DNA from: an uncultured virus (IMG/VR IMGVR_UViG_3300034071_001673)
Lineage: Duplodnaviria; Heunggongvirae; Uroviricota; Caudoviricetes
DNA length: 64,000 nt
Virus record (IMG/VR): IMGVR_UViG_3300034071_001673
Direction: 5' to 3' (one strand)
Under the pieces are notes generated by a model. The model searched no databases and had not been told where the DNA came from. It was given only the letters and a program-made list of their open reading frames with translations. Numbering within the stretch: the stretch's first letter is position 1; the number at the start of each line of letters is the position of its first letter. Position numbers and translations under genes: made by a program. Shown here one piece after another: positions 3,535-61,277 of the stretch.

Positions 3535-3546
3535 TATTGACTCCGA

Positions 3547-3714: not shown

Positions 3715-3730
3715 GAATGTAACCTCTTTG

Positions 3731-3738
3731 TATTTATT
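3731..3738 (-). promoter_or_regulatory. T4-type late promoter-like element (AATAAATA)
   Basis: NATAAATA in a short intergenic gap before a structural cassette. The same element recurs at 6845, 9795, 14892 and 43171. Confidence 0.5.
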
Positions 3739-6623: not shown

Positions 6624-6624
6624 C

Positions 6625-6834
6625 TTACATACCTGCTAATAAAAATGGATTGAACCCTGCATCTGCAGCGGTAAAGGAAACATTCGCGTTTCCTGTTGTT
6701 GTATTCGTTACAGTCACTTGAACAGTTCCAGTGTTCACGAAATTATAATTTGTAACACCAAGATTGACGCGAGCTGCAGCAGCTGTATTCGCTCCTGTTC
6801 CACCGACATCTATTGTTGCGACTGTTGTTGACAT
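6625..6834 (-). CDS. 69-aa mini-fibre/anchor protein
   Basis: GGTGANTAAAAR motif shared with 3547..3714. NFVNTGTVQVTV shared with the N-terminus of 7759..9771. Confidence 0.65.
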   Translation of the reverse strand: MSTTVATIDVGGTGANTAAAARVNLGVTNYNFVNTGTVQVTVTNTTTGNANVSFTAADAGFNPFLLAGM

Positions 6835-6844
6835 TTTCTATTCC

Positions 6845-6852
6845 TATTTATT
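6845..6852 (-). promoter_or_regulatory. Late promoter-like element (AATAAATA)
   Basis: Intergenic, immediately before the RBS of 6625..6834. Confidence 0.5.
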
Positions 6853-7746: not shown

Positions 7747-7758
7747 AGTTTATTCACC

Positions 7759-9771: not shown

Positions 9772-9794
9772 TTAACACTCTTAGATTTATTGAA

Positions 9795-9802
9795 TATTTA
9801 TC
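9795..9802 (-). promoter_or_regulatory. Late promoter-like element (GATAAATA)
   Basis: Intergenic, upstream of 7759..9771. Confidence 0.45.
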
Positions 9803-9809
9803 TGCGCAA

Positions 9810-12182: not shown

Positions 12183-12183
12183 A

Positions 12184-12510
12184 TTAGGTAATTTCTGTTC
12201 CGAACACGCTGAACGTGATTACATTTGAAGATGCATTTACAGTGATCACATCAGTGTTGCCAAGAGTTAATCCAAGTGATAAACCAATCGCATCGCTTCC
12301 TGCAATTACAGAATCATAGGCAATATAATATTGATTTGCAACAGCAGCACCTGCAGGAAGCACTGCGATTCTATAATTCGTATTTGAAGAAGATCGATTC
12401 GTGACAATAATTGATGAGACTACTGTTGATGTTGCTGCTGGAACTGTGTAGACATTTGCAAACGCAGTTGTTCCAGCCACTTGTCCTAGAATTTTATATC
12501 TTTCTGCCAT
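12184..12510 (-). CDS. 108-aa adaptor protein
   Basis: MAERYKILGQ...VYTVPAAT...FGTEIT, paralogue of 6297..6623. Confidence 0.7.
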   Translation of the reverse strand: MAERYKILGQVAGTTAFANVYTVPAATSTVVSSIIVTNRSSSNTNYRIAVLPAGAAVANQYYIAYDSVIAGSDAIGLSLGLTLGNTDVITVNASSNVITFSVFGTEIT

Positions 12511-12522
12511 TGTAATGTCCTG

Positions 12523-12699
12523 TTATAAACTGAAAAAGACTTTTGCGAATCCACCACTAGCACTATTTGCTGCAGCATATGCATTATTCGCTGCAGCATA
12601 TGCAGCGTTGGCTTGACCATAAGCAGTGTTTGCTTGAGTGTGTATTGTTCCAAGATCTGTTTGTAATTCTTGAACTTGATATTGTTTTGGTTTTGCCAT
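12523..12699 (-). CDS. 58-aa mini-fibre/anchor protein
   Basis: Manual translation MAKPKQYQVQELQTDLGTIHTQANTAYGQANAAYAAANNAYAAANSASGGFAKVFFSL. TAATG overlap with the upstream stop. Confidence 0.7.
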   Translation of the reverse strand: MAKPKQYQVQELQTDLGTIHTQANTAYGQANAAYAAANNAYAAANSASGGFAKVFFSL

Positions 12700-24443: not shown

Positions 24444-25168
24444 CGTTCATCTCTCAATTCATTTGTGTATACATTTTTTCTGGTCACTTGTTTCTTTCGA
24501 ATCAATTCAATCTCATTAAATTCTTTATCTTTAATTTTTCTGACTTTTGGTTTTTTCGGAAATGAATTTCTCTTAATTGGGATTGCAGTCACCAGAGGAG
24601 TTCCTGCACGAATTAATCCATCAAAACCAGGCTGATTCCAAATTGCTGGAAAATTAACTTCCTTTGGATATCTATCAGTGTCAACTAATCCACCCAAACA
24701 AGTAAATGGAGTTCCAACATGATTAATTGGAGGAATAAACAATGTCGACCAGCCTGGAGCAGTCTTAATAATCCAATAATTGATAAACTTGATCGGATTG
24801 ATTGGAAATCCTGGGGCTGACTCTCCACCAATTTGTTCAACGTTATGGCTATCTGCCAATTTCATTTCTGGTGGGCTTGTATACTTCATTTCTGTCATAT
24901 CGTTATTGACCATGACATGAATATCACCACACAATGGTATTGTATATCCCAAAGACATTGCATCAATCATTGGGAAACACTTTTTAGCATTCATCGCAAA
25001 GTCATTGTATTCATCTCTCCGAGTCTTTGAAACTGGAGGAATAATTCTAAACCACTCAGGCAAATATTTGATTGCTGGCTTTGGTTCAGGAATGACATTC
25101 TCAAACTTTGGGTGACAGTAAAATTCAATCACATCATTTTTAAAAACACGAATCAATTTGTTTAGCAT
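24440..25168 (-). CDS. Hypothetical protein, DUF6065-like
   Basis: KKCFPMIDAMSLGYTIP, GLVDTD and IRAGTPLVTAIPIKR motifs. Confidence 0.55.
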   Translation of the reverse strand: MLNKLIRVFKNDVIEFYCHPKFENVIPEPKPAIKYLPEWFRIIPPVSKTRRDEYNDFAMNAKKCFPMIDAMSLGYTIPLCGDIHVMVNNDMTEMKYTSPPEMKLADSHNVEQIGGESAPGFPINPIKFINYWIIKTAPGWSTLFIPPINHVGTPFTCLGGLVDTDRYPKEVNFPAIWNQPGFDGLIRAGTPLVTAIPIKRNSFPKKPKVRKIKDKEFNEIELIRKKQVTRKNVYTNELRDER

Positions 25169-25752
25169 ACTCTTTTACCCATAATCCAAGCAACCAAAGA
25201 TTTACGAACTCCAGATTTAACTGGCGCAACTCTATGCGGCATCCAAGAAGCAAAGAATATTACAGAACCTTTTGGTGGTTTTATTGAGTGCGGTTTTTCT
25301 ATATTTCCATCCGCAACAATTTGAAATTCTCCACCAGAATATTTTTTGGGGTCTGATAAAATTACCACTGCACTAATCTTTCGTTCGAAGCCATGAAATT
25401 CTGTGAAGGCATCAAAGTGCCAATTATAATGTTGCTTTGGTTTATACTTGGTGTATTGAAACGCATCAAAACCATCAATATCATACATGAAGTGAGAGTG
25501 GTTTACTTGACCCATCAATGAACCAAATTTATCAAATATCCATCTAGAATCTGGGCTCCATTTCAACCAAGAAATGTCACTGTCGCGATATTGTTTATTA
25601 GTGGTTGTTGATGGACCAGTTCCCATCTTACCCTCACTGAATTCTTGCAATTCTTCAAGATCAATAATTTTATCGACTTCTTCTTCAGTGAAATAATTAT
25701 CAACAATACAAAACTGAGGAAGTGGTTTTATGTACTTTGTGAATGATGGCAT
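25162..25752 (-). CDS. 2OG-Fe(II) oxygenase, prolyl-4-hydroxylase/PKHD-type
   Basis: WHFD (HxD), YSGGEF, and PHRVAPVKSGVRKSLVAW (distal His and 2OG-binding Arg). Confidence 0.85.
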   Translation of the reverse strand: MPSFTKYIKPLPQFCIVDNYFTEEEVDKIIDLEELQEFSEGKMGTGPSTTTNKQYRDSDISWLKWSPDSRWIFDKFGSLMGQVNHSHFMYDIDGFDAFQYTKYKPKQHYNWHFDAFTEFHGFERKISAVVILSDPKKYSGGEFQIVADGNIEKPHSIKPPKGSVIFFASWMPHRVAPVKSGVRKSLVAWIMGKRVC

Positions 25753-43170: not shown

Positions 43171-43178
43171 TATTTATG
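43171..43178 (-). promoter_or_regulatory. Late promoter-like element (CATAAATA)
   Basis: Overlaps the gp5 stop, upstream of gp25. Confidence 0.45.
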
Positions 43179-46137
43179 TCTTAGACGGACGAAGAATTGC
43201 AACAATTTGCGCACCTCCGCTGCTGACAAGAGAGACGTCACCAATGCGACCATCACCGATATTACCGTTATACGGTGGTTGAGATCCTCCGATAAAGGTT
43301 AGAGATCCATTTATGTTTTCATAAACGAAGTTGGTATGGTCATTATTCCACAAAACAACATCTCCAGGCTGAGCATCTGATGGCTTAACACGAGTGAAAC
43401 GATAATCATCGATTCGAATTTCAAGATCTCTTGGATTTGGAGTCTGAACATATCGATAGCCATTCTGTTTCAATCCGAAGTTGACGAATGCGATTGCCCA
43501 TCTCGATTGATCGCTCAAATTCCAAAATTCTCTAGAGAATCCGAGATTTCTCCAGAGATCAGTGATATTTGGATTCGACGGTTCGATTCTACCAGAAATT
43601 TCAACACCAGTTTCTCTCCAATAACCGTTTGCTGCGAGAACTAATTGTTTTCTCAGCCAAGCAGATATATCCGCACCATCATTAATCACAATCAAACTCT
43701 CTCCCACAACATCATTAAAGATCACATCAGAGCCTGAAGTTGATGGTGGTGCAATAAATCTCTTAACGTTTGAATATGGTGAAGAATATGCATAAGGATT
43801 TGCAAGATAATCTCTTAATAACTTATTGTTTTCTTCTGTTATCGAGTCTTTAAATCTAAAGATTCTATCTGGTTCTAGATGTTTTTGTGTATCAGTTGGA
43901 GTTCCTAATTTAATTGGTTTCTCAAGATAAGATGTCGCATTTACAACTTCTTGCACTTGATTTACATTAATTTGGAACTGATCAGCGATTTCGATTAGAA
44001 CAAATTGCTCTTCACTGCTATTTCTTCTCATTCTATCCTTGTTCGTTTTATCTTCATGATACAAGTAAACAATACCATTTGCATCTATCGCAGGCATGCG
44101 AGTTAAGGAAGGATCTGGTATCAATGCAGCAATTCCTCCGCTGCCTGCTACAGATAGAACATGAGAATCCCCGTTCGAATCATATCCTGTCGCTTCCATA
44201 TTGGTCGCACCAGCATTTAACAATCCATTAATCTCAACAGAGGATCCAGTGACTCGAGTTGAACTTCCTTTTAGGTGAAGAACATTACTTGAAGTGAAGT
44301 ATCCATTTCCTACACTGTTGATTGAGATATTTCCAGAGGATTGGATCGCCACGTTTCCAGATCTATAATGAATCGTATTCGCAACGTTGAAGTATTGATT
44401 TGATTTAGAGTAAAGAGTGAAATCATTCGCAGTTGATATGTTAGAAGTATTCGAATTTATAATAAGTTTATCATCAACTGAAATGTATTGATTATTAGCA
44501 GTGATTGTCGATGTATTTGCAATGTCGAAGTGCAGAGTATTGGCTCGCATATTAAATGCGCCACCAACCGATACATTCATATTTGCACTCACATTTGCCT
44601 CTAGATTATTCTCGACTTGCAAGAAACAATCACCAACGACTTTAATATGAGCGTTAGATTCTAAGACAATATTAACCTTTCCTGCAACATAAAGATAATC
44701 ATCGTTGAGAACAATTCTATAATTACTCTTGACGACTTTTTCTACTTTAGTTCCACTTGGATAAAATTCAACAAAACTTCCAGATCTATGCGCTAGATGA
44801 ACACGCTCACTTCCAGGAGTATCATCAAGTTCGAACACATGACCAGATTCTGTTTCCATAGCCTTGTTATATGGATATTCAGCTATGTATGGAGAGGCAG
44901 GTTCTGACCATGATTGATCATTTGCTCCAATTGCAATGATTGAAGATCGCTCTCGGAATTTTTGTGTAACGCTCTTTTCTAATGAGGTTGCAAAATCATT
45001 CAATGAAGGCTTGCCTTGCTCTTCTGGAAGCGGATACTTTAGAGATTTTGCATCTGAATCTGCAGATAAATCTGATTCGTGAATTTGAACACCAAGTCCA
45101 GCCCCTGCAGCTGAGATTGGATTTCTTTTTGTTAAAGTATTTCTTCTTTGCTCAGCCAATGATGACTTTGGAATTGATTTGAATAGATTAGCAGCAATAT
45201 GTGACAGCGAATCTTCACTGATCAGATATTTCCCAGTTGAAGATTTGAGTTTATCGGAACTGATTAACTGAGCTGCTCTAACGAGGTCGCCAGAAGTGAT
45301 TGCAGAACGAACACCGATTCTCTCAAAATCCACATTAAGACCGATGTGATACGCATGAAACGCCAAACCTGCTTTTTGAGCAACGTTTAATCCGTTCCAA
45401 ACACCATCGCTAATTGAACTTCGAGCGCGATTTATAGAGTTGTTAATATCAATTCGAAGAAGTGCTGTTGCTTGTTGTGGTGTTATAACAGTGTCAATTC
45501 CATTAATACCATAAATTGGCACTGTCTCAAAAGAACTGATTGAAACATAACCTTGTCGTAATTCTTGTTGTGTAAACTGATGATCATATCCGATCATACT
45601 CTGATCACTTTCTGTAAGAGACTGTTTGGCTTTTAAAGACAATGGAACATGCAATTTGATACTATTCTCAATGATTTTCAATAATCCGATTCCATCATTA
45701 ATAATATTCGCACTCACTGGATTTTCTGTTCCAGTTCTAGCCTCAGGATAATCAATGGCTGATGGTTTTCTTGGTGAGTTTCTTATTTTACTTGCATCTC
45801 TAACGTCACCAAATCCGCGACCATCTGGAGGATTTTGTTTATTAATTCCAGGAAGAACTCCTAGAATGGCTGGTGATTGAGCGAATGATCCATCAAGGAA
45901 AAACCCAACAACATACTCGCCTTCTTTTGGTGCAGAGAATGATTCGTTGTTATTGACAGAATATACTGGAATTGCCCATGGTAAATCTTCTGTTGGGATT
46001 GCAACAGTATCATCTGTGTGTATTCCAAAGATGCGAACACGACATCTTCCAATCTTTTCTGGATCATTGCGATCTTCAACGACGCCAATCCACCATTGAA
46101 ATCCGTCTTGTCCAATAAAATTCTTTCTTAATTTCAT
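43174..46137 (-). CDS. gp5: Baseplate hub/needle gp5 with degenerate lysozyme-like and CHAP-like domains
   Basis: N-terminal GVVEDRNDP..GRCRVR OB-fold, YPYNK..ETESGHVFELDDTPG.ER and beta-helix repeats. Confidence 0.85.
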   Translation of the reverse strand: MKLRKNFIGQDGFQWWIGVVEDRNDPEKIGRCRVRIFGIHTDDTVAIPTEDLPWAIPVYSVNNNESFSAPKEGEYVVGFFLDGSFAQSPAILGVLPGINKQNPPDGRGFGDVRDASKIRNSPRKPSAIDYPEARTGTENPVSANIINDGIGLLKIIENSIKLHVPLSLKAKQSLTESDQSMIGYDHQFTQQELRQGYVSISSFETVPIYGINGIDTVITPQQATALLRIDINNSINRARSSISDGVWNGLNVAQKAGLAFHAYHIGLNVDFERIGVRSAITSGDLVRAAQLISSDKLKSSTGKYLISEDSLSHIAANLFKSIPKSSLAEQRRNTLTKRNPISAAGAGLGVQIHESDLSADSDAKSLKYPLPEEQGKPSLNDFATSLEKSVTQKFRERSSIIAIGANDQSWSEPASPYIAEYPYNKAMETESGHVFELDDTPGSERVHLAHRSGSFVEFYPSGTKVEKVVKSNYRIVLNDDYLYVAGKVNIVLESNAHIKVVGDCFLQVENNLEANVSANMNVSVGGAFNMRANTLHFDIANTSTITANNQYISVDDKLIINSNTSNISTANDFTLYSKSNQYFNVANTIHYRSGNVAIQSSGNISINSVGNGYFTSSNVLHLKGSSTRVTGSSVEINGLLNAGATNMEATGYDSNGDSHVLSVAGSGGIAALIPDPSLTRMPAIDANGIVYLYHEDKTNKDRMRRNSSEEQFVLIEIADQFQINVNQVQEVVNATSYLEKPIKLGTPTDTQKHLEPDRIFRFKDSITEENNKLLRDYLANPYAYSSPYSNVKRFIAPPSTSGSDVIFNDVVGESLIVINDGADISAWLRKQLVLAANGYWRETGVEISGRIEPSNPNITDLWRNLGFSREFWNLSDQSRWAIAFVNFGLKQNGYRYVQTPNPRDLEIRIDDYRFTRVKPSDAQPGDVVLWNNDHTNFVYENINGSLTFIGGSQPPYNGNIGDGRIGDVSLVSSGGAQIVAILRPSKT

Positions 46138-47462
46138 GAGTTAATTACCAAATTCCACGCAGAATTAAATTGTGGGTTAAATCCTATATTGACATTCACT
46201 GAGTCTTTGCAAAGCTCTGCATGACAATAGTAATAATTTTCAATAAGTTGATGACGTATTCCAGTGATTAGATATCTTCCTGACATCATATTGTCTTCTT
46301 TGATATTATTTGGATCTGTTTGTGCATCATTTTTAGGCAAACTGACATTCACAATATCGCCGACTGACAACGAACTATCCCCTGGCAGATCAACATGCAA
46401 TCTTGTGTTATTTAAGAGAGCTATTCGAGCAGCACGCGAAAGTAACCATTTACTTGTGAGCATGTCTTGAAATTTAGGAAACATGCGAACATAACCAGAA
46501 GCCTGATTTAAAGAATTGCCCATTCTATTTTTTGCGTAACTATACGGCAAATATTCATTCAACAGTTTAAGAGATGACTGATTCACACCAAACTGTTCGT
46601 ATTCAGTCGTTCGATTCATAATATCAAGTTTCAATAGTTCAGATGCGTATGCTCCATTATTCATGCTATCCAAAACATCAAATACTTGTTTAAATTCCAT
46701 CTCATCTAATTTATCATGTCTTGATCCGATGGATTCTAAGAAGTTTTGATTTTTTGGTGAGTAATAAATTGTTTTCTTTGCTGGTCTGGAATATAAACTG
46801 CTCAAGGAAACAAAATTAAAGCCATTGATGTTCTCGTAAAACATGTATCCAGGAGATAAATCTTTTGGATTTATTGCAAAGGATGCAATCCAATTGATAG
46901 CCTCAAATGGTCTTAAGTTTGGAACAATTAGAGGACTTTTTTCTGGATTAATTAGTAGGCTTGATTGCTCGATGTTATCATCGGTTAGTTTTTCTGGAGA
47001 AATCTTTAAAAAATTTCTAGAAATAATTTTAATAATATCTGAAAGTCTACTCTCCTTAAATGATTTGGAGATGTAGTATTGTTGATTCAACATGAATTCT
47101 TCAGAGCAGAAATGCAATTTAAAAGTTGCATTTGATGTTCCACGCAAAGTATAATCACTTATCTTGTAGATTCTAAAAACTTTTTGATACCTTTGCATTC
47201 CAGGTGTGCTAAATGCGACAGAAATAAATTCGTTTCCGTGCATCTTCAATCTGTTTAGCAAATCATTTGAGTCAACAAGAGTCGCATCACCACTGATGAC
47301 ATTGTTGAACAGATCCTCGTATAAATTTATTTCTTGAAAAACGAAATCGACGTCAATGTTAACCCCAAGACAATTGATTAACTTTAATTCTGTTAAAGAA
47401 AAATCATACTCAGAGTACAGACCATCACCAGCTGATCTTCCGCTCGAATTAACATCTTTCAT
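46134..47462 (-). CDS. Baseplate hub protein (gp27-like / tail protein)
   Basis: Position between gp53 and gp5. INLYED, FYEN..GFNF and PGD..L.VGD...SGRYLIT.IRH motifs. Confidence 0.55.
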   Translation of the reverse strand: MKDVNSSGRSAGDGLYSEYDFSLTELKLINCLGVNIDVDFVFQEINLYEDLFNNVISGDATLVDSNDLLNRLKMHGNEFISVAFSTPGMQRYQKVFRIYKISDYTLRGTSNATFKLHFCSEEFMLNQQYYISKSFKESRLSDIIKIISRNFLKISPEKLTDDNIEQSSLLINPEKSPLIVPNLRPFEAINWIASFAINPKDLSPGYMFYENINGFNFVSLSSLYSRPAKKTIYYSPKNQNFLESIGSRHDKLDEMEFKQVFDVLDSMNNGAYASELLKLDIMNRTTEYEQFGVNQSSLKLLNEYLPYSYAKNRMGNSLNQASGYVRMFPKFQDMLTSKWLLSRAARIALLNNTRLHVDLPGDSSLSVGDIVNVSLPKNDAQTDPNNIKEDNMMSGRYLITGIRHQLIENYYYCHAELCKDSVNVNIGFNPQFNSAWNLVINS

Positions 47463-47463
47463 A

Positions 47464-48390
47464 TTATTTTGCCAGCATTAATGAACTAAATTGATTCTCA
47501 ATAGCACCGATTATTGAAGACTGTGGCACTATAATTTTTCTTCGCTCTTCGTTTAATTCAACCTCATAATCATAATATGATACAGGAGAAACTGTTGTTG
47601 CAATTGTCATTTGAGCATTTCCGCCAGTCACTGAACTTACAACATTAAATGTATTCGAATAAGAAGTATTTGTGTTGAGAGCAATTACAGTATTTGTTGA
47701 GTAATTAAATCCATTTGCTGTGATTCTATACTTTTTGACTTCAGAAAATGTTGGATCATCTGAGTTTGTTTTTGTCTCTGTTACTTCATAATGACTTACA
47801 GTGTTAACAGCCCACTGGTATCCATCTAAGTTGTTTGTGATTGCAATAACAGTATGTGTTTGCGCTGCCGAGTTAGCAGTTACACCTTTAATGGTGCTAC
47901 CATTTGCAAACATCTGAGAAGGAAATTTTAATTTTAAAACTTTATTTGTTGAATCATAGGCGACAATTGTTGCATCTGCTGTTGATTTATCGTAAGTAGA
48001 TGCCCCCTGATAGACAATCTCACCTGCAGTATAATAGGTTCCTGGAGTTGCATACGACTCCGCAGTGCTCAAACTTACATTAATTGATCCATACTTTTGT
48101 TTGATATATTTTTCAAAGTCATATGGACCTAGTGGCCAATCAAATTGAGGATCAATGATTTGATTGACAAGAAAAAGAATCCAATGTTTCTCAGGATTTC
48201 CATAAACTCTGTTCGCAATTTGCTCTGCTGTTTCTTCACCCTTTACTTCATATTTAAAAAATAAACTTTGATTTGACAGAATAGAGTCGATAAATTTAAC
48301 TCTAGCGAGCATATCTGGAACAATTTTTGCATTTGTTCCTTCTTTATTGATAGAGTATAATACTCTTGGAAATTTTGAGAAATAAGACAT
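47464..48390 (-). CDS. gp53: Baseplate wedge subunit gp53
   Basis: YFSKFP, LysM-like E.IA..VYG....HW, DWPL and YDYEVELNE.RR.I motifs. Confidence 0.85.
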   Translation of the reverse strand: MSYFSKFPRVLYSINKEGTNAKIVPDMLARVKFIDSILSNQSLFFKYEVKGEETAEQIANRVYGNPEKHWILFLVNQIIDPQFDWPLGPYDFEKYIKQKYGSINVSLSTAESYATPGTYYTAGEIVYQGASTYDKSTADATIVAYDSTNKVLKLKFPSQMFANGSTIKGVTANSAAQTHTVIAITNNLDGYQWAVNTVSHYEVTETKTNSDDPTFSEVKKYRITANGFNYSTNTVIALNTNTSYSNTFNVVSSVTGGNAQMTIATTVSPVSYYDYEVELNEERRKIIVPQSSIIGAIENQFSSLMLAK

Positions 48391-49589
48391 TAGTAACCGT
48401 TCTTAATATCGTTTTTAGTGAGAACGACGCTTTCTATAAATTCAAGATCAAGGCTTATAGAAACTGGAGTGCCGTCTTGGTGTGTTGCAAAGGTATCTAA
48501 CTGCGCTGCATAGTTTGTGTTGATCGAGGCTATCATGCATGTCGTAACTCTAGGCATCGCTAAATTTTCTACAAATTTTCCTGTGCTATCTCTACGAAGG
48601 AACTGAATTTCGAAATGATTTGGTGGAACCAAATATCGAGTTCCGCTACCTTCTGCAGCTGTGCCCTGTCCACCAGCATTCTCAGAGTGTGAATGGAATC
48701 TGAAGGTCTTAATGATTTTCTTAACTTCTTCTGCTTCTTTTAAATTTCTTGGAGCAAATCTAAATTGGAACAAGAAGGATCTTGGTTGCGTTCCACCGTA
48801 TGTCATTTCAAGCATCGGATTTAATGCATAACCGAGTCCTGATAGAATCGCTTCAGTTGATCGTGTCCCAAATATTCCTGCTCTTCCAGCCAGCTCTGCA
48901 AATACTTCTGTTCTTCCTAAAGCAGATCCAAGTCCACCTAAAGCAGCAGGAAATCCTGCGGAATATAGTCCTGCTCTACCTGAAGCCTGATTAATAGAAA
49001 TTGATTGATAATCATGTTTGTCTTGATTGATTACTGTATCAGGCATATACAAAGTGATTGAACTGTCTAATTCAACTGTTCTTTGTCCATAGGAAATGTC
49101 GCGACCACCAGTAAAAAATTCGATTCCATTTGCTCCAATTCCAATCAAATCTTCTGTAACTGTACCGATATTAAATTTAGAAGATTGAACTAGTGAACTT
49201 CTAAACAAAAAAGAAGTATTAAACGCACCTTGAGTTACAGGAAACTTTCTTGGTCTTCCAGGATCAAATTGATCTGGCGGATTTTTAAAAGATGGTGTTT
49301 CATTTGGGTCATCTAGGAACGATCTGCGCTGTGCATATGCAACGAAACGAACTGCATTCTTAAAACCACCACTCGGATCAGTCATATTAAGTGGATATCT
49401 TAAATGCTTTGGTTCAGATTTTGATCTAGATCTTCCAATTACATCGATGCCTTCTAAAAGTTCTGCATCTCGCGGAGCAGAACCAGGAGTTCTTCCAATG
49501 ACATTAATATCTGTCAAGACTTCATCGCCTCTTCGATCGACTCCAGGTCGTCGACCTATGACGTCGATGTTCTCTAATACTTCGGTCAT
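48390..49589 (-). CDS. gp48: Baseplate tail-tube cap gp48 with N-terminal repeat extension
   Basis: I.LYMPD, NP.LE..Y....RSF.F.F.FAPRN..EA and P..I.L.L.F.E motifs. Confidence 0.8.
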   Translation of the reverse strand: MTEVLENIDVIGRRPGVDRRGDEVLTDINVIGRTPGSAPRDAELLEGIDVIGRSRSKSEPKHLRYPLNMTDPSGGFKNAVRFVAYAQRRSFLDDPNETPSFKNPPDQFDPGRPRKFPVTQGAFNTSFLFRSSLVQSSKFNIGTVTEDLIGIGANGIEFFTGGRDISYGQRTVELDSSITLYMPDTVINQDKHDYQSISINQASGRAGLYSAGFPAALGGLGSALGRTEVFAELAGRAGIFGTRSTEAILSGLGYALNPMLEMTYGGTQPRSFLFQFRFAPRNLKEAEEVKKIIKTFRFHSHSENAGGQGTAAEGSGTRYLVPPNHFEIQFLRRDSTGKFVENLAMPRVTTCMIASINTNYAAQLDTFATHQDGTPVSISLDLEFIESVVLTKNDIKNGY

Positions 49590-49599
49590 TGAGATTTCC

Positions 49600-49607
49600 T
49601 ATAAATA
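49600..49607 (+). promoter_or_regulatory. T4 late promoter TATAAATA
   Basis: Exact consensus 4 nt before the gp4 ATG at the divergence point. Confidence 0.75.
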
Positions 49608-49611
49608 ATTG

Positions 49612-50046
49612 ATGGCATACAGCGGCAAATACAGTCCGAAAAACATCAGTAAATATTTAGGTGACCATACGAACATTTGGTATCGATCGTTATGGGAACG
49701 CCGAGTCATGGTGCATCTGGATGAAAATCCAAGTGTAATCGGATGGTCGAACGAAGAGATCGTTATTCCTTATTTATCCCCAGTAGATGGAAGATGGCAT
49801 CGGTACTTTCCAGACTTTTTCGTGAAAGTTAAGAATAGAAATGGTCTAGAAGAAAGTATGATTCTAGAAGTTAAGCCAAAGAGTCAAGCATCTCCTCCTA
49901 AACCAAAGAGTCGTATCACAAAGCAATACATCCAAGAAGTTGCAACTTGGGGTGTGAACGAAGCAAAGTGGAAGGCAGCAAATGAATACTGTATGGATAG
50001 AAAATGGAGATTTAGTCTAATCACAGAGGATGAATTAGGAATCTGA
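49612..50046 (+). CDS. gp4: Head completion nuclease gp4
   Basis: YSGKY.P.N..KY.GD, YRSLWE, HRYFPDF, EVKP and N.AKW.AA motifs. Confidence 0.9.
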   Translation: MAYSGKYSPKNISKYLGDHTNIWYRSLWERRVMVHLDENPSVIGWSNEEIVIPYLSPVDGRWHRYFPDFFVKVKNRNGLEESMILEVKPKSQASPPKPKSRITKQYIQEVATWGVNEAKWKAANEYCMDRKWRFSLITEDELGI

Positions 50047-50597
50047 TGGGAGCACTACTCGAAAAAATTGAAAAGGGAATGGCAAAGAAAGGGATCAAGC
50101 CAAGAACTGAAGAAGCCAAAAAGTTCATACAAGGCATGGTAGCCAAAGCCTCAATTCCATCCAATAGATCTAATATTCTGAACGATGCAAAGCGAGTTAC
50201 TGCATTCGCTGCAGTTGGAAGAATGTTCTTCTTTCGATATGATCCACTCACAAAAGAAAGACTCTCGCAATGGGATGAATTTCCTCTAGTTCTTCCAATG
50301 GTTGTAGATGGTGATGGGTTCGCTGGCATCAATCTACACTTTCTAGGTCCAGGAGAAAGAATGAGTATTCTGGATGGATTGTCGATGTTCTTAAACAACG
50401 ATAAATATGACGATTCTACAAGATTTTTATTGTCCTATGATCTCCTATCCAACATGAGCCAATTCTCTGGTGCTGTTCGAAGTTGCTATAGAAGATATCT
50501 TTATGATCAACTAGTTTCACCACTGATATATGTAGAACCAAACTTCTGGGAGACTGCAGTATTTCTTCCAGTTGAACGAATGAGGAGTTTTGGTTAA
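50046..50597 (+). CDS. gp2: DNA end protector gp2
   Basis: F.YDP.TK..L..WD.FPLV, GINLHFL and W.TA.FLP motifs. Confidence 0.85.
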   Translation: MGALLEKIEKGMAKKGIKPRTEEAKKFIQGMVAKASIPSNRSNILNDAKRVTAFAAVGRMFFFRYDPLTKERLSQWDEFPLVLPMVVDGDGFAGINLHFLGPGERMSILDGLSMFLNNDKYDDSTRFLLSYDLLSNMSQFSGAVRSCYRRYLYDQLVSPLIYVEPNFWETAVFLPVERMRSFG

Positions 50598-51385
50598 TGG
50601 CGCTCAATCCAAGAAAAACACTAAACATCAACAACTTTCTCTCAGAGGTTCGAAAGAGCGGATTTTCACGACTCAATAAGATTGCCATTGTAATCAAGCC
50701 ACCAACAGAACTAGTCAACATTCTGAATTATAAAAATAAAGATAATTATCTCACATACTATGCTGAGTCTGTTTTGATTCCAGGATATGAGATACTCACA
50801 AACGATCTTTACTTGGGTGGACCAAAAATGAACATCCCAGTTCGTTCTGAGTATAAAGATGTCTCAACCACATTCTTAGTTGATGATGATATGCGTCAAA
50901 AAACCTTCTTTGATGCTTGGTTGAATTATATCAATCCAAAAGAAAATAAATTCGACTTTAGATATAGAGATGATTACATCGGAGAAATTGATGTGTATCA
51001 AATCTCCGAAGATGGAAATAGGATTTCATATGGAGTGAGATTATATGAAGTATTTCCGATTGCTGTGAGTGAAGTAAAGGGATCATGGGCTGAGCAAGAA
51101 GCAGTAAGAATAGATGTCAACTTCTCATATCGTTACTGGAGAAGTTTCAATGCAGACCGATATGAACGAAATGATAACGAGGCACCAGAAGTCCTTGAAG
51201 ATATTGAGGTCGTTGGAAGAGCAGCAGACAGAGAAGTTCTTACTGGTATCGATGTTGTTGGAAGAACTGGTGATGGAAATGAGGTTTTGACAGATATTGA
51301 TGTCAGAGGAACAACAAGTGACAGAGAAGTCTTGACGAGCATTGATGTGGTGGGTCGAGGAAGAAGAAACGTCGACCCACGATAA
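50597..51385 (+). CDS. gp54: Baseplate tail-tube initiator gp54-like (gp19 fold) with C-terminal repeat extension
   Basis: Tube-like motifs (F..W...I, Y.DDY.G.I, L.E.FP..V, V.FSYRYW) and synteny after gp2. Confidence 0.65.
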   Translation: MALNPRKTLNINNFLSEVRKSGFSRLNKIAIVIKPPTELVNILNYKNKDNYLTYYAESVLIPGYEILTNDLYLGGPKMNIPVRSEYKDVSTTFLVDDDMRQKTFFDAWLNYINPKENKFDFRYRDDYIGEIDVYQISEDGNRISYGVRLYEVFPIAVSEVKGSWAEQEAVRIDVNFSYRYWRSFNADRYERNDNEAPEVLEDIEVVGRAADREVLTGIDVVGRTGDGNEVLTDIDVRGTTSDREVLTSIDVVGRGRRNVDPR

Positions 51386-51399
51386 CTATGGAGTGATTT

Positions 51400-52122
51400 A
51401 TGGCTATACCAAAAATTGATTTACCAACATTTAAACTTAAACTAGAATCTCTAGGCAAAGACATAACCTTTCGCCCTTTTGTTGTCAAAGAAGAAAAAAT
51501 TCTTTTGATGGCTTTAGAGTCCAGAGATTATGAGACAAGTCTTGATGCAATTAAACAAATTGTCAACAATTGTGTTGTTGATCAGATAGATGTTGAGTCT
51601 TTACCATTATATGAGATTGAATATTTGTTCTTGAATCTACGAGCAAGATCAATTGGAGAAATTGTTTCATTAGAATACGTTTGTGAAAATATTGTGGATA
51701 AGAATAAGAAGTGTAAAGGAAAGATGCAGCTTGATATTGACTTACTTAAAGTTGCATATGAACATAAACCCTCAAACAGTTTGGTTCCGTTAACAAGCAA
51801 TGTTGGAATTAAATTGAGATATCCGACAATAGAAATCTCTAAAGTATTAGTTGAGAAACTCAACACAAAAGATGCTCCAACAGAAATTATCAAGCAATGT
51901 ACTGAGTATCTTTACGATGAGAATCAGGTGTATAATATTAATGAGATGCAACAAGGCGAGTTTGATGAATTCATAAACAATTTAACCACTGAGCAATTCA
52001 AGAAAATTAAAAACTTTTTCTTAGAGATGCCAATGTTAAGATATAAGAATGAATTAGTTTGTGGTAAGTGTGATAGAAACCATACCATCAAACTGGAGGG
52101 TCTCCTCGATTTTTTCGTATAA
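51400..52122 (+). CDS. gp26: Baseplate hub assembly protein gp26
   Basis: FRPFVVKEEKILLMA, EYLFLNLRARSIGE and LEGL.DFF motifs. Confidence 0.85.
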   Translation: MAIPKIDLPTFKLKLESLGKDITFRPFVVKEEKILLMALESRDYETSLDAIKQIVNNCVVDQIDVESLPLYEIEYLFLNLRARSIGEIVSLEYVCENIVDKNKKCKGKMQLDIDLLKVAYEHKPSNSLVPLTSNVGIKLRYPTIEISKVLVEKLNTKDAPTEIIKQCTEYLYDENQVYNINEMQQGEFDEFINNLTTEQFKKIKNFFLEMPMLRYKNELVCGKCDRNHTIKLEGLLDFFV

Positions 52123-52154
52123 GCCTTCGTAATGAGAGTTTGAAAACATATTAT

Positions 52155-52316
52155 ATGACTAATTTTGCATTAATGCAGCATCATGGATATAGTTTAAGTG
52201 AACTCGAAAATATGCTCCCGTGGGAAAGAGCGACATATGTTGCATTAGTGGCGCAACATGTGAAAGAAGAAAATGATAAGATAAGAGAACGACAATTACA
52301 GAGAAAGAATAAATGA
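52155..52316 (+). CDS. gp51: Baseplate hub assembly catalyst gp51-like (53 aa, possibly expressed as a -1 frameshift extension of gp26)
   Basis: Manual translation MTNFALMQHHGYSLSELENMLPWERATYVALVAQHVKEENDKIRERQLQRKNK. Confidence 0.8.
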   Translation: MTNFALMQHHGYSLSELENMLPWERATYVALVAQHVKEENDKIRERQLQRKNK

Positions 52317-53665
52317 TTGATCGATCAGAATTTATGTCTCCTTTTGCAAAAAAAGGTGATCAGTTAAAAAACGGATTTGCCAAACGATTTGGTGGCGGAA
52401 CGTTTGCATCAGCTGATCTAGTTGACATGTTTAAGCCTGATGCATCTCAAATGATGAAAGATGCGGTTGGTACAGACACAAAGATGATCAACGATATGAT
52501 TTCATCTGCAATCGACGAAAGGTTGGGTGAGATGCCAGAGAAGGCTGAAGAACCAACATATTCAAAACAAGACATTCAATTTGACCCGAGTCAAATGCCT
52601 CAATCGTTCTCTAATTTAGAGGACATTCAAGAGGCAATGAGAAAAACCTTTAATTCTGGTGCACAAGATCCAACAATGCAAAATGCTGCAGCTGCATTGT
52701 CAACAACAGACACTGGAACATTAGCTGGATTGGAAGGTTTAGATTTCAATTTCAATGATGGTACGTGGGACTTTCTGCAAAACATTCAGCCAAATAGTGC
52801 GCAGGAAGAACCAGTTCTAGAACAAACACAAGTTGAACCATTTGTTCAACCAATTATAGATTCATTAGTAGAACAAGATTTTGTTCAAACACCGACTGAT
52901 GACACAGAGCAACCTACACCATCATACATTAATGACAAATTCAATGAAACGTTAGATAACATATATGATGAGATTGAAGAAATAAAAGTCATTGGTAAGA
53001 CGCAAGATGATACTCTAGATGACATCTATGATGAGATTGAGGATATTACTGTAATTGGAAAAACCCAAGACGAAAATATCGATGATCTTTCTGAAGAAAT
53101 TGAAAGCATTGATGTTGAGGGATTGACTGACGAAGAAGATATAGAAGATATCTTAGTAAGTGGGAAACGAGAAGAAGAATCATATTGTAAAAAAGTGTAT
53201 AAAGATGTTAGTGATATGAAAGAAAAAAATGAAGAAGAGGAAAGTAATAACCCATGGGAAAGATTTAAACGATTGTATGCTGACTTTTATGGCGGAGATA
53301 ATGCAGGAGAAATTTTAAAACAAGTCAAGATGCGAGAAAATGAATATGATGCATCGCTCGAAGAATCATCTGCAGCAGATTTAGATGAATCTTCGATGAA
53401 CCCAATTACATCTGACACACAACAAATTTTAAATGCTAAGAAAGAGAAAGACGATTTAGATGCTTTCTCAGAAATGCTTGATGATTATAAGAGTTCAACA
53501 GAAGAAAAGAAATCGTCAGCACCAATTGTAATCAATAACAATAGAACAATCACTGCAAAGGCAGCAGACGCAAAAACTGAAAGAGTATTCAGTAACGAAA
53601 ATACTTTCAATCGTCTTGCTGGTGCAGACTCTAATCACCCACAATACATTGGTTATGGAAGATAA
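52313..53665 (+). CDS. Acidic protein at the tape-measure/gp29 position
   Basis: 450 aa directly after gp26/gp51 with ATGA coupling. C-terminal APIVINNN segment. Function inferred from position. Confidence 0.5.
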   Translation: MIDRSEFMSPFAKKGDQLKNGFAKRFGGGTFASADLVDMFKPDASQMMKDAVGTDTKMINDMISSAIDERLGEMPEKAEEPTYSKQDIQFDPSQMPQSFSNLEDIQEAMRKTFNSGAQDPTMQNAAAALSTTDTGTLAGLEGLDFNFNDGTWDFLQNIQPNSAQEEPVLEQTQVEPFVQPIIDSLVEQDFVQTPTDDTEQPTPSYINDKFNETLDNIYDEIEEIKVIGKTQDDTLDDIYDEIEDITVIGKTQDENIDDLSEEIESIDVEGLTDEEDIEDILVSGKREEESYCKKVYKDVSDMKEKNEEEESNNPWERFKRLYADFYGGDNAGEILKQVKMRENEYDASLEESSAADLDESSMNPITSDTQQILNAKKEKDDLDAFSEMLDDYKSSTEEKKSSAPIVINNNRTITAKAADAKTERVFSNENTFNRLAGADSNHPQYIGYGR

Positions 53666-55513: not shown

Positions 55514-56536
55514 TTAGATCTCATATTCACTCAAGGAATTGTTCAACTGCTGAGTCACACGAACAAACGTTGTGCGCTTACTCAACTCTTTCAATTCACT
55601 TGCTCCCACATAAGTACATGCCGAACGTAATCCACCCAAAATATCTTGCATAGTTCGTTTTACCTCACCGCGATATGGAATCTCTACAGTCTTGCCTTCA
55701 GATGCTCTGTAATTGGCAACACCACCATTATGCAGATCCATTGCAGTATCAGAACTCATTCCGTAGAATTTATTTCCGCCCAGTGCACTCGCTCCGCCTT
55801 CCTTATGACCTGCCAACATTCCACCAAGCATCACGAAATCGGCTCCCGCAGCAAATGCTTTCACAACGTCCCCAGGAACGGAACACCCTCCATCCGCTAT
55901 GATATGACCCTTGAGACCATGAGCAGCATCCGCACACTCAATCACTGCACTCAACTGCGGGTAGCCGACGCCTGTCTTTTTGCGTGTAGTGCAAACAGAG
56001 CCAGGACCAATACCAACTTTCACGATGTCAACACCGCCGATAATTAGTTCTTCTGTCATTTCTGGTGTGACAACATTACCTGCCATCAATACAACATAAG
56101 GATAACGATCGCGAAAATGACGAACGAAATTTACAAAGGCTTGTGTATAACCATTCGCAACATCAATACAAACTCTCATGTTTCGATTTCCGACGATATT
56201 ATACACTTCATCGAATTTCTTTAAATCTTCGCCAGAAGTGCCAAGAGAATAGATGCTACTGTCTAATCTTCGCGCAAAGTGACTGTTTAATTCAGACTCA
56301 CCATAATGTTTGGTCAAAGCAACCATACAATTATGTTTGGCAAACTCTAAATCCATCTCTAGAGTGCCAATACCATCCATGTTTGCAGCAATAATTGGAA
56401 CGCCTTTCCAACTGTTGCCACTTCTGAAAGTGAATATTCTTTCTAGATTTACTTCGCTTCTTGAAGAAAGGTTAGAACGTTTCGGAGTGATGAGGACATC
56501 TTTATAGTCCAACTTAACGTCTTCAATAATTCTCAT
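55514..56536 (-). CDS. guaC: GMP reductase
   Basis: [44 protein letters not shown] and YRASEGK motifs. Confidence 0.92.
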
Positions 56537-60496: not shown

Positions 60497-60525
60497 ATTG
60501 TATAACAAAGTCAAGTAAAAGTCAA
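60497..60525 (-). promoter_or_regulatory. Sigma70-type promoter
   Basis: TTGACT-N17-TACAAT upstream of the exonuclease. Confidence 0.65.
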
Positions 60526-61277
60526 GTATTTTCTTGCTTTTCATATTTCTCAACAGCAATCAAGAAGTCTTTGACAAGACTACTGCGAACGATATCTTCT
60601 GTTGTGAATTCGATATTCGTAAACGAGTTCATAGTCTTGGCAACTTCGTGGAACTTTCGAAGTCCACTCTTGTCTTTGGTATTGCGATAAAGATCTGTTT
60701 GTTTGTAATCACCACAGAAGATAATCTTCGAACGATGACCAACTCGAGTCATAATTGTCGTCAATTCTTCCCAAGTCATATTCTGACATTCGTCGACGAT
60801 GATGACAGCATCATCGAAACTCATACCGCGAATGAAACTAGTAGAGATGAATTCAATACGACCACATTCTTTCATTGCGTCATATGCATCACGACGACCG
60901 AACAACGTATGACAGATCTGCATATAAGGTTGTTCATACAGACTCATCTTTTCTTCTACGGATCCTGGAGTAAAACCAAGATCACGAGACTGAACAGCAG
61001 AACGTACAATCACGATGCGATGAAATGGTGACGAACGATCGAGGACTTCTTCAATGGCTTTATAACAGGCAATGAATGATTTACCAGTACCTGCTGAACC
61101 ACAGAGCATCGTGAAGTAATCTCCACGAGCATATGCCTCGAAAAACTTTGCTTGATTTGGTGTGAGTGGTTCGAACTTTTTTAATTCCGCTGCTTTGATT
61201 CGCGGCGGTTTCTTCTCAGTAACCTCTGAAGTGATTTCTATGTAACTGTTTGAGTTTCCATTTTTCTTCTTAGACAA
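60522..61277 (-). CDS. phoH: PhoH-like ATPase
   Basis: GSAGTGKS, LGFTPG, IRGMSFD, DECQN and GDY.Q.DL motifs. Confidence 0.92.
   Translation of the reverse strand: MSKKKNGNSNSYIEITSEVTEKKPPRIKAAELKKFEPLTPNQAKFFEAYARGDYFTMLCGSAGTGKSFIACYKAIEEVLDRSSPFHRIVIVRSAVQSRDLGFTPGSVEEKMSLYEQPYMQICHTLFGRRDAYDAMKECGRIEFISTSFIRGMSFDDAVIIVDECQNMTWEELTTIMTRVGHRSKIIFCGDYKQTDLYRNTKDKSGLRKFHEVAKTMNSFTNIEFTTEDIVRSSLVKDFLIAVEKYEKQENT

What the first reader, a model, noticed from the sequence alone, without database searches (positions are those of the whole stretch)
49420..53170. TonB-box-like repeats grafted onto three tail-tip proteins (gp48, gp54, tape-measure-position protein)
Seen: one short motif recurs 11 times in three otherwise unrelated proteins. 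gp48 N-terminus (~49420-49589): VLENIDVIGR, VLTDINVIGR, LLEGIDVIGR. gp54 C-terminus (~51185-51365): VLEDIEVVGR, VLTGIDVVGR, VLTDIDVRG, VLTSIDVVGR. Protein 52313..53665 (~52967-53170): IEEIKVIGK, IEDITVIGK, IESIDVEG, IEDILVSGKR. In gp48 and gp54 the repeats are terminal extensions outside the conserved core. Established: TonB boxes of TonB-dependent transporters read like LEEIVVTG.R/DTLVVTA, group B colicins use such boxes to exploit TonB, and in T4 gp48, gp54 and gp29 sit at the tube end that enters the periplasm. Inference: the tail tip displays arrays of TonB-box mimics to recruit host TonB-ExbBD, so the proton motive force could dock or uncap the tube or pull out the tape measure. I know of no description of this for a contractile T4-like tail.
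Basis: partly seen in the sequence, partly recalled or inferred. Interest (0 to 1): 0.9.

Follow-up and report, generated by a model that had tools for sequence, protein, structure and literature searches.

The report
TonB-box-like repeats on phage tail tip
A freshwater T4-like phage carries eleven copies of one short strand-forming peptide on three proteins at the far end of its tail tube, and in sister phages that peptide closely resembles the tag bacterial outer-membrane transporters use to dock the TonB energy motor, so the phage may use that motor during DNA entry, though binding is untested.

Summary
Observation confirmed. There are 11 copies of one ~10-residue motif (E-Φ-[LI]-[ET]-x-I-x-V-x-G-[RK]) in three proteins: the N-terminus of the gp48 tube cap (3), the C-terminus of a gp19 paralogue that by elimination is the gp54-type tube initiator (4), and the middle of the orphan protein in the tape-measure slot (4). 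In six frames of the 108-kb contig the motif was found in no other gene.

The copies use different codons and lie outside the conserved cores. Copy number varies (0-5) among relatives, and the motif co-occurs in all three proteins across about 8 related lineages.

A PSSM from 23 TonB boxes of transporters in three freshwater gammaproteobacterial MAGs scores sister-lineage repeats at 20-28 bits. Real boxes score 6.8-36 leave-one-out, and no shuffle reached 16 bits. The window's own copies reach only 9.0 bits, which is not above shuffles.

The phage encodes a TonB-dependent transporter, so its host should have TonB. The tape-measure-slot protein lacks the hydrophobic segment of the T4 and Mosig tape measures.

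TonB binding is untested. In T4 the gp48 N-terminal loop is a baseplate anchor, so a structural role is a live rival. No paper describing this was found. The scan noted the same system in a related genome (e1-5989820).

The parts
48390..49589 (-). gp48-type baseplate tail tube cap, 399 aa
   Evidence: phrog_230 E 6.6e-49 over residues 54-398; Pfam PF11091 at 20.3 bits against a cut-off of 20.2
49425..49583 (-). N-terminal arm of gp48 with 3 motif copies (49545-49583, 49485-49523, 49425-49463), joined by G/R/P/D-rich linkers
   Evidence: AF2 pLDDT below 50 and no secondary structure over nearly all of residues 1-69 (1-18, 21-56, 58-69), but the whole model is weak, mean pLDDT 50
50597..51385 (+). 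tube-fold paralogue (gp19/gp3/gp54 family), 262 aa; probable gp54-type tube initiator
   Evidence: phrog_45 E 1e-31 and phrog_3629 E 1.1e-15. Of T4 gp3, gp19 and gp54, only gp54 also hits phrog_3629. Separate gp19 and gp3 genes exist in Mosig and Cr30.
51188..51364 (+). C-terminal arm of the tube-fold protein with 4 motif copies
   Evidence: lies beyond the PHROG core (residues 5-192)
52313..53665 (+). orphan 450-aa acidic protein in the tape-measure slot (after gp26 and gp51)
   Evidence: no Pfam, PHROG or phage tblastn hit; 28 relatives among 1.84 billion representatives; same slot as the Cr30 annotated tape measure; helices plus a disordered middle; no hydrophobic 19-mer above KD 0.65
52967..53173 (+). 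4 motif copies in the predicted-coil middle of the 450-aa protein (52967-53005, 53030-53068, 53093-53131, 53135-53173)
   Evidence: pLDDT below 50 over residues 220-282 and 284-307
51400..52316 (+). gp26 baseplate hub (51400-52122) and gp51 hub assembly catalyst (52140-52316); context that defines the hub/tape-measure slot
   Evidence: PF12322 E 9.1e-58; phrog_634 E 4.7e-22
49609..50597 (+). gp4 head completion (49609-50046) and gp2 DNA end protector (50046-50597); context
   Evidence: phrog_218 E 6.8e-59; phrog_429 E 6.6e-35
43177..48390 (-). gp5 hub/lysozyme (43177-46137), phrog_350 tail protein in the hub position (46134-47462), gp53 wedge (47464-48390); none carries the motif

Best explanation
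The repeats are arrays of a short linear motif of the TonB-box type. They sit on flexible arms of the proteins at the far end of the tail tube (gp48 cap, gp54-type initiator) and on the protein that fills the tape-measure slot. Shown: the motif, its restriction to these three proteins, its conservation and variable copy number, its strong likeness to real TonB boxes in sister lineages, and a phage-borne TonB-dependent transporter. Inferred: after sheath contraction and release of the gp5/gp27 hub, the arms are exposed in the periplasm. There they add as beta-strands to the C-terminal domain of host TonB, as transporter and bacteriocin TonB boxes do. The PMF-driven ExbB-ExbD-TonB motor then either pulls the tape-measure-slot protein out of the tube, in the way it pulls the plug of a transporter, or tethers the tube end to the inner membrane. 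This may make up for the missing membrane-insertion segment in this clade's tape-measure-slot protein.
For: (1) The motif occurs in these three proteins and in no other gene of the 108-kb contig. (2) In 20 related IMG/VR loci, many of them near-identical (about 8 distinct lineages), 19 of 19 gp48 copies with an intact N-terminus, 15 of 15 tube-fold proteins with the C-terminal region aligned, and 8 of 8 slot proteins with the region present carry the motif. The loose-regex rate is 9.1 per 1000 residues in these ORFs and 0.68 per 1000 in the 616 other ORFs. (3) A 12-column PSSM was built from 23 distinct TonB boxes, taken from 30 of the 86 Plug matches in three MAGs. In L015 the ten best of 6,327 positions are all repeats in the three proteins, and six score at least 16 bits, against 0 in 100 shuffles. 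Real boxes score 6.8-36.0 bits leave-one-out. (4) Across database homologues, 10 of 34 gp48 proteins with at least 52% identity have a hit of at least 12 bits (shuffled 0 of 680). The figure is 14 of 29 for tube-fold proteins with at least 49% identity (shuffled 2 of 580). It is 0 of 17 for gp48 proteins with 40% identity or less. T4, Cr30, Mosig and GR28A homologues reach at most 5.0 bits, so 0 of 10 reach 8 bits. (5) Copy number varies from 0 to 5 and the linkers are G/R/P/D-rich or acidic. Two gp48 relatives (P0026, P0033) have lost the repeats, so the arms are dispensable for folding. (6) The phage encodes a full-length transporter with a signal peptide and its own TonB box. That box scores 7.9 bits, about the same as the window's best repeats at 9.0 and 8.4 bits. 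(7) All 23 members of the slot-protein family have a maximal KD19 of 1.07 or less, against 2.20 for T4 gp29 and 2.31 for the Mosig 655-aa protein. (8) The T4 preprint, sections 7-9 read, shows that the hub is released, (gp48)6 is the distal tube end that meets the membrane, and the tape measure is expelled there. (9) Precedent: bacteriocins carry TonB boxes in disordered N-terminal regions and are pulled in by TonB-ExbBD (passages of PMC12927319).
Against: The window's own copies are among the least TonB-box-like of the clade. The best scores are 9.0 and 8.4 bits and the others are 3.5 or less. Hits of at least 8 bits number 3 observed against 1.6 expected from shuffles. They have Asp/Asn/Glu at the centre and Arg directly after Gly. 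The slot-protein repeats score like TonB boxes in only 1 of 21 family members at 12 bits or more (shuffled 1 of 420). The PSSM comes from MAGs chosen only because they hold the nearest cellular homologues of the phage transporter (55-57% identity). The host is unknown. In T4 the gp48 N-terminal loop (residues 7-32) is a structural anchor wedged between gp53 and the sheath, so an N-terminal extension here could have that role. By gene order (4-2-X) the tube-fold gene sits where T4 has gene 3, the tube terminator at the head end, and profile comparison favours gp19 and gp3 over gp54. Cr30 and a Vibrio phage, whose hosts have TonB systems by recall, lack the motif. No binding data exist.
Confidence: 0.5

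Rival explanations
1. The repeats are structural strands inside the virion. They would interlace the distal tube proteins with the inner baseplate and sheath, like the T4 gp48 anchor loop, or with each other and the lumenal slot protein during hub and tube assembly. On this reading the likeness to TonB boxes is convergence on a generic amphipathic beta-strand.
For: The T4 gp48 N-terminal loop (7-32) inserts between gp53 and the first sheath layer and holds the tube until the baseplate opens (preprint section 7). The repeats occupy the N-terminal end of gp48, ahead of the conserved core. The motif flavour changes in concert in all three proteins (IDVIG type versus VVVTG type), as expected if the copies pair with one another or with one phage partner. 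The window's copies score poorly as TonB boxes.
Against: Copy number varies from 0 to 5 among close relatives, and two gp48 lineages lack the repeats. That is unusual for a fixed structural joint. The same motif occurs in the slot protein, which in T4 lies inside the lumen and cannot reach the gp53-sheath interface. Sister-lineage copies match real TonB boxes over about 10 positions, including the flanking L-E-E and T-G-x-R, at 20-28 bits with none at 16 bits or more in 100 shuffles. T4, Cr30 and Mosig homologues assemble without the motif.
Confidence: 0.3
2. The arms bind another host envelope protein by strand addition, for example a TonB paralogue, TolA or another periplasmic domain. Alternatively they act as decoys that occupy TonB and so block TonB-dependent entry of competing phages or bacteriocins. 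In neither case would they draw force from TonB.
For: The window-type motif departs from the MAG transporter consensus, which could reflect a different partner. The phage also brings its own transporter with an atypical box (T-I-T-S in place of V-V-T-G/A). Use of Tol by filamentous phage is a recalled precedent for envelope-motor capture.
Against: No known motif for another partner was recognised. A virion brings only about 54-66 copies (6x3 + 6x4 + 3-6x4; stoichiometry inferred from T4), which is few for a decoy. Sister-lineage copies match TonB boxes specifically.
Confidence: 0.12
3. The repeats are neutral low-complexity repeats without a function of their own.
For: The arms are low-complexity, and one pair of copies is a recent 63-nt tandem duplication.
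Against: The motif residues are conserved while codons and linkers diverge. It persists in three unlinked positions across lineages down to 27-54% identity of the host proteins.
Confidence: 0.03

Closest known systems
TonB box of TonB-dependent outer-membrane transporters (here the LEEVVVTG/A-x-R form seen in freshwater gammaproteobacterial MAGs)
   Same: Both are short amphipathic strand motifs in a flexible segment near a chain end, with the same residue pattern. Sister-lineage phage copies score within the range of real boxes.
   Different: The phage motif sits on virion proteins, not at the N-terminus of a plug domain. It comes in tandem arrays of 2-5 per chain, not one. The window's copies have an acidic or polar central residue and Arg right after Gly, and they score low.
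TonB boxes of TonB-dependent bacteriocins (pyocin S2 and klebicin C in PMC12927319, passages read; colicins B, D, Ia, M and pesticin by recall)
   Same: In both cases a parasitic agent carries a TonB-box mimic in a disordered region, so that the host's PMF-driven TonB-ExbBD pulls on it in the periplasm.
   Different: Bacteriocins are single soluble proteins that thread one box through a transporter or TolC. Here the arrays would be delivered by a contractile tail that has already crossed the outer membrane. The review states that a single box suffices.
T4 distal tube end: gp48 anchor loop, (gp48)6-tape-measure gate and tape-measure transmembrane segment (bioRxiv 10.64898/2026.03.06.709160, sections 7-9 read)
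   Same: The proteins and topology are the same: gp48 and gp54 rings at the tube end, with the tape measure expelled there.
   Different: The T4 proteins have no such motif (at most 2.0 bits). The T4 tape measure has a hydrophobic segment (KD19 2.20) that the slot protein here lacks (0.65 or less in the window).
TonB-dependent phages such as T1 and phi80, and Tol-dependent entry of filamentous phage (recalled, not checked here)
   Same: Phage entry depends on an envelope-spanning, PMF-coupled host motor.
   Different: As recalled, in T1 and phi80 the dependence runs through the receptor's own TonB box, and Ff binds TolA through a folded domain. No TonB-box motif on a tail protein was found in print (searches).

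Membership tests
TonB box (TonB-binding short linear motif) | Sequence fits the TonB-box consensus of real transporters | tested here: inconclusive
   Window copies: best 9.0 and 8.4 bits (ranks 2 and 3 of 72,289 positions), the rest 3.5 or less, not above shuffles. Real boxes score 6.8-36.0 bits leave-one-out. Positional homologues in sister lineages score 20-28 bits, with none at 16 bits or more in 100 shuffles.
TonB box (TonB-binding short linear motif) | Lies in a flexible, accessible segment near a chain end | tested here: inconclusive
   The motif lies outside the PHROG cores. The segments are coil with pLDDT below 50 in AF2 models, but both models are weak overall, with mean pLDDT 50.1 and 51.7.
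TonB box (TonB-binding short linear motif) | Binds the TonB C-terminal domain by strand addition | not testable with these tools
   This needs a binding assay or a structure with the true host's TonB. See Tried and rejected.
TonB box (TonB-binding short linear motif) | Host has TonB-ExbB-ExbD and the motif reaches the periplasm | tested here: inconclusive
   The host is unknown. The phage encodes a complete transporter with a signal peptide and TonB box. The candidate-host MAGs have tonB-exbB-exbD operons. Periplasmic exposure is inferred from T4.
T4 gp48 baseplate tail tube cap | Family profile match over the core | tested here: met
   phrog_230 E 6.6e-49 (T4 gp48 hits the same family); PF11091 at 20.3 bits against a cut-off of 20.2. 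hhalign against T4 gp48 alone aligns only 45 columns, probability 32%.
T4 gp54 tube initiator | Tube-fold paralogue distinct from gp19 (tube) and gp3 (terminator) | tested here: inconclusive
   For: phrog_3629 is shared with T4 gp54 only, and Mosig and Cr30 each have three phrog_45 genes, the other two being gp19 next to the sheath gene and a gp3-type gene next to the capsid and UvsY genes. Against: hhalign gives gp19 88.7%, gp3 77.0% and gp54 36.4%; the PDB profile search hits gp19 and gp3 but not gp54; the gene order 4-2-X matches T4's 4-2-3.
Tape measure protein (T4 gp29 type) | Sequence or profile similarity to gp29 | tested here: not met
   No PHROG or Pfam hit, whereas T4 gp29 is in phrog_1283. 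tblastn against 50,697 phage records found nothing.
Tape measure protein (T4 gp29 type) | Gene position in the hub cluster after gp26 and gp51; helical, elongated protein | tested here: met
   It occupies the same slot as the Cr30 annotated tape measure and the Mosig 655-aa gene. The AF2 model shows only helices and coil.
Tape measure protein (T4 gp29 type) | Hydrophobic or transmembrane segment (stated as a common feature in the T4 preprint) | tested here: not met
   Maximal KD19 is 0.65 in the window protein and 1.07 or less in all 23 family members, against T4 2.20, Mosig 2.31 and Cr30 1.55.

The most novel reading that the evidence does not exclude
A clade of freshwater T4-like phages has replaced the membrane-inserting segment of its tape-measure-slot protein with TonB-box arrays, and has put the same arrays on the gp48 and gp54 rings. 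The host's PMF-driven TonB-ExbBD motor would then pull the plug out of the tail tube and dock the tube to the inner membrane. This would be TonB-energised genome delivery by a contractile tail, mechanistically parallel to plug removal in transporters and to bacteriocin import.
Probability: 0.3. Interest if true: 0.9.

Novelty: new variant of a known kind. Interest (0 to 1): 0.75.

Why it matters
How contractile-tailed phages get DNA from the tube tip across the periplasm and inner membrane, and why this step needs an energised membrane, is still open. [quoted passage not shown] A phage that displays dozens of TonB-box mimics exactly at the tube end would give a concrete, testable host partner for that step. 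It would extend TonB parasitism from bacteriocins to virions. It would also predict that tonB or exbBD mutations and TonB-box competition affect infection after adsorption. In addition it suggests a sequence signature, tandem TonB-box-like motifs on distal tube proteins, that can be searched for in other phages. Its flavour might also report on the host.

Tried and rejected
1. Complex prediction. The TonB C-terminal domain of a candidate-host MAG (residues 112-211, 3-row alignment) was folded with gp48 residues 1-60 (31-row alignment). The tool gave no verdict: scores 0.25 and 0.24 against a mark of 0.32, and the controls were not folded. This is not evidence either way. The TonB was a stand-in from a guessed host.

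2. Profile of 61 repeat copies against all PDB sequences. There was one hit at E 10 or less (AlkZ, E 4.9) and no transporter. The 13-column profile is too short for HMMER's filters.

3. NCBIfam scan of 8 proteins at E 10 or less. No transporter or TonB-related family was hit.

4. Search for unrelated phages with such arrays.
- The search for related loci with the sister-lineage gp48 arm found only 4 close relatives.
- A degenerate DNA pattern for two nearby boxes gave 7 loci, all in short non-coding or low-complexity frames.
- tblastn of the arm against 50,697 phage records gave no match at E 10 or less.
So no independent occurrence was found here. These queries were narrow and do not show absence.

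5. TonB_C (PF03544) in the phage contig: none. The contig is about 63% complete.

6. A 'Klebsiella' MAG contig with a 54% transporter homologue (L088) was checked as a possible mis-binned relative. No gp48 was found with this query.

7. The AF2 models of gp48 and the slot protein were too weak (mean pLDDT 50.1 and 51.7) for fold searches, so none was run.

8. Reading the tube-fold gene as the major tube protein was rejected. Relatives carry a separate gp19 gene beside the sheath gene. PF06841 finds nothing in this incomplete contig.

9. Reading it as gp3 was considered and not excluded.

Full report
WHAT IS THERE

The window is part of a 108,214-bp linear virus contig, about 63% complete, of a T4-like myovirus. 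Around the finding lie these genes:
- gp5 hub/lysozyme (43177-46137, -)
- a phrog_350 tail protein in the hub position (46134-47462, -)
- gp53 (47464-48390, -)
- gp48 tube cap (48390-49589, -)
- on the other strand: gp4 (49609-50046), gp2 (50046-50597), a tube-fold protein (50597-51385), gp26 (51400-52122), gp51 (52140-52316) and an orphan 450-aa protein (52313-53665)
- then gp32 and gp59

There are three at the very N-terminus of gp48, four at the C-terminus of the tube-fold protein, and four in the middle of the 450-aa protein.

In six frames of the whole contig, a strict pattern hits only these proteins (7 of 7 hits). A looser pattern gives 10 of 11 hits in them. Identical residues are mostly encoded by different codons, and only one pair of copies is a DNA-level tandem repeat. 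The motif is therefore held by selection on the peptide.

WHICH PROTEINS

gp48 is secure: phrog_230 with E 6.6e-49, the same family as T4 gp48.

The tube-fold protein belongs to phrog_45, which also holds T4 gp19, gp3 and gp54.
- It is not the major tube protein. The related complete genomes Mosig and Cr30 each have three phrog_45 genes. One lies beside the sheath gene (gp19). One lies beside the major capsid and UvsY genes and is annotated in Cr30 as tail completion and sheath stabilizer (gp3). The third follows gp2 and is annotated in Mosig as a putative tube initiator.
- By elimination, and through the phrog_3629 hit shared only with T4 gp54, it is the gp54 equivalent.
- Three results point the other way. 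hhalign gives gp19 88.7%, gp3 77.0% and gp54 36.4%. A PDB profile search finds gp19 and gp3 but not gp54. The order 4-2-X is T4's 4-2-3.
- I therefore call it a probable gp54-type initiator.

The 450-aa protein has no Pfam, PHROG or phage-database match. It has only 28 relatives among 1.84 billion representatives. It sits where Cr30 annotates its tape measure. Its AF2 model is helices plus a long disordered middle that holds the repeats. I call it the tape-measure-slot protein. Its identity rests on position alone.

RELATIVES

Twenty IMG/VR loci with gp48 at 52-100% identity were fetched. Many are near-identical, and about eight lineages are distinct.
- The motif is present in 19 of 19 gp48 copies with an intact N-terminus.
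- It is present in 15 of 15 tube-fold proteins with the C-terminal region aligned.
- It is present in 8 of 8 slot proteins with the region present.

Database homologues show 0-5 copies per protein. Two gp48 relatives (P0026, P0033) have lost the repeats. gp48 proteins at 40% identity or less, and the homologues in T4, Cr30, a Vibrio phage and Pelagibacter phage Mosig, have none.

The motif flavour changes in concert in all three proteins. It is an IDVIG type in the window's lineage and a VVVTG or VTVTG type in the most distant lineages (L015-L017, L019-L020). There are intermediates, such as VLESVTVTGRRR as the last copy of otherwise IDV-type arrays.

TEST OF THE TONB-BOX IDEA

The phage contig itself encodes, outside the window, a complete TonB-dependent transporter. 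It has a Plug domain and a barrel, is 834 aa long, and carries a signal peptide and its own TonB box. Its nearest cellular homologues, at 55-57% identity, are in freshwater-lake MAGs labelled Steroidobacteraceae or Gammaproteobacteria.

From three such MAGs I took 30 of the 86 Plug-domain matches and read the TonB box upstream of each. This gave 23 distinct boxes, mostly LEEVVVTG/A-x-R. I built a 12-column PSSM from them. Real boxes score 6.8-36.0 bits leave-one-out.

Results in the distant phage lineages:
- The repeats are the top hits of the whole locus. In L015 the ten best of 6,327 positions are all repeats, and six score at least 16 bits, up to 28.4. No position reached 16 bits in 100 shuffles.
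- Among database homologues, 10 of 34 gp48 proteins and 14 of 29 tube-fold proteins have a hit of at least 12 bits, against 0 of 680 and 2 of 580 shuffled proteins.
- Only 1 of 21 slot proteins does.

Results in the window itself:
- The best copies score 9.0 and 8.4 bits, ranks 2 and 3 of 72,289 positions. The phage transporter's own box is close by at 7.9 bits.
- The remaining copies score 3.5 bits or less.
- The number of hits is not above shuffles.

So the TonB-box likeness is strong for the family of repeats. It is weak for this window's members, which have an acidic or polar centre and Arg directly after Gly.

A FURTHER ODDITY

None of the 23 slot-protein family members has a hydrophobic 19-residue stretch above KD 1.07. 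T4 gp29 reaches 2.20, at the place the T4 preprint calls the tape-measure transmembrane segment. The Mosig 655-aa protein reaches 2.31 and the Cr30 tape measure 1.55. If this protein is the tape measure, the clade lacks the segment that in T4 is thought to enter the membrane. It has acidic arms with the repeats instead.

CONTEXT FROM PAPERS

bioRxiv 10.64898/2026.03.06.709160 (abstract, sections 8 and 9, and passages of sections 3, 7 and 10 read) reports the following for T4:
- After contraction, gp5.4-gp5-gp27 is released.
[quoted passage not shown] It grips a tape-measure helix and flares open on a lipid bilayer.
- Six tape-measure copies have their C-terminal loops at the distal end.
- The gp48 N-terminal loop (7-32) is wedged between gp53 and the sheath before contraction.

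The first three points support the view that arms on gp48 and the slot protein would meet the periplasm. The last point supports a structural rival.

PMC12927319 (passages read) describes bacteriocin TonB boxes in disordered N-termini that are pulled by TonB-ExbBD.

Six full-text searches that paired 'TonB box' or 'TonB' with phage-tail terms found only papers on the receptor's TonB box (T5/FhuA), on bacteriocins, or on unrelated topics. Those papers were seen as search listings only. The terms used included tape measure, baseplate, tail tube, tail, mimic, T4-like, tail protein, DNA ejection and periplasm. I found no description of TonB-box-like motifs on phage tail proteins. Subscription journals are not covered.

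READING

Best explanation (0.5): these are TonB-box-type linear-motif arrays on the distal tube proteins, and they engage host TonB after penetration.

Shown:
- the motif, its restriction to three proteins and its conservation
- its array-like and dispensable character
- its quantitative match to real boxes in sister lineages
- the phage-borne transporter
- the slot protein without a hydrophobic segment

Inferred: periplasmic exposure, binding to TonB, and force transmission.

Main rival (0.3): the repeats are strands that interlace tube-end proteins with the baseplate or with each other, as the T4 anchor loop does. Variable copy number, loss in two lineages, presence in a presumably lumenal protein and the 10-position match to real boxes speak against it. 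The concerted change of flavour and the weak scores in this window speak for it. The two readings are not exclusive: an arm tucked into the baseplate before contraction would be exposed on the tube tip afterwards.

PRIOR NOTES OF THIS SCAN

The scan noted the same system in a related genome, e1-5989820, which shares 32 of 180 short words with this gp48. It also noted a claimed analogous case in a giant phage, e1-5978064. I repeated the PSSM-type test independently here. I did not check the giant-phage note.

VERDICT

This is a new variant of a known kind: TonB-box parasitism, known for bacteriocins, here carried on a contractile tail. It is of high interest and needs a binding or genetic test.

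Noticed in passing
outside the window: G000:C1:9793-12297 (+), locus L025:9793-12294: The phage contig encodes a full-length TonB-dependent transporter (Plug plus barrel, 834 aa, signal peptide, own TonB box). Homologues at 70-90% identity occur in metagenomes. The nearest cellular homologues, at 55-57% identity, are in freshwater Steroidobacteraceae/Gammaproteobacteria MAGs. An LpxH-like metallophosphoesterase (8991-9767) and a GDP-mannose-dehydratase-like gene (7049-7987) lie just upstream.
   Followed up: partly
window 578-14369 (-): Four paralogous fibre-like genes (875, 852, 790 and 556 aa; phrog_2295/phrog_863). Three of them are each accompanied by a 108-111-aa phrog_1276 gene. Most of the stretch has GC 0.47-0.52, against 0.34-0.44 in the rest of the window. 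It looks like an array of alternative receptor-binding cassettes.
   Followed up: no
window 14914-22323 (-): A 2470-aa tail-fibre protein with several internally repeated fibre modules (multiple PHROG fibre families, 2-6 matched stretches each).
   Followed up: no
window 52313-53665 (+) and 22 relatives: The tape-measure-slot protein family has no hydrophobic segment (maximal KD19 1.07 or less), unlike T4 gp29, the Mosig 655-aa protein and, less clearly, the Cr30 tape measure. It has a conserved C-terminal block (RVF-x-DDNTFNRL...HPQY) and an NPWERFK-x-LY block.
   Followed up: partly
window 55517-56536 (-), 60525-61277 (-), 25165-25752 (-): Auxiliary genes: a GMP-reductase/IMP-dehydrogenase-like dehydrogenase (phrog_9582), PhoH, and a 2OG-Fe(II) oxygenase.
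   Followed up: no
P0197 (tube-fold homologue) and P0224 (slot-protein homologue): In some relatives the invariant Gly of the motif is Ser (GIDI-x-S, GVDVQS). This recalls the T-I-T-S box of the phage-borne transporter. Whether it reflects a shared partner preference is unexplained.
   Followed up: no
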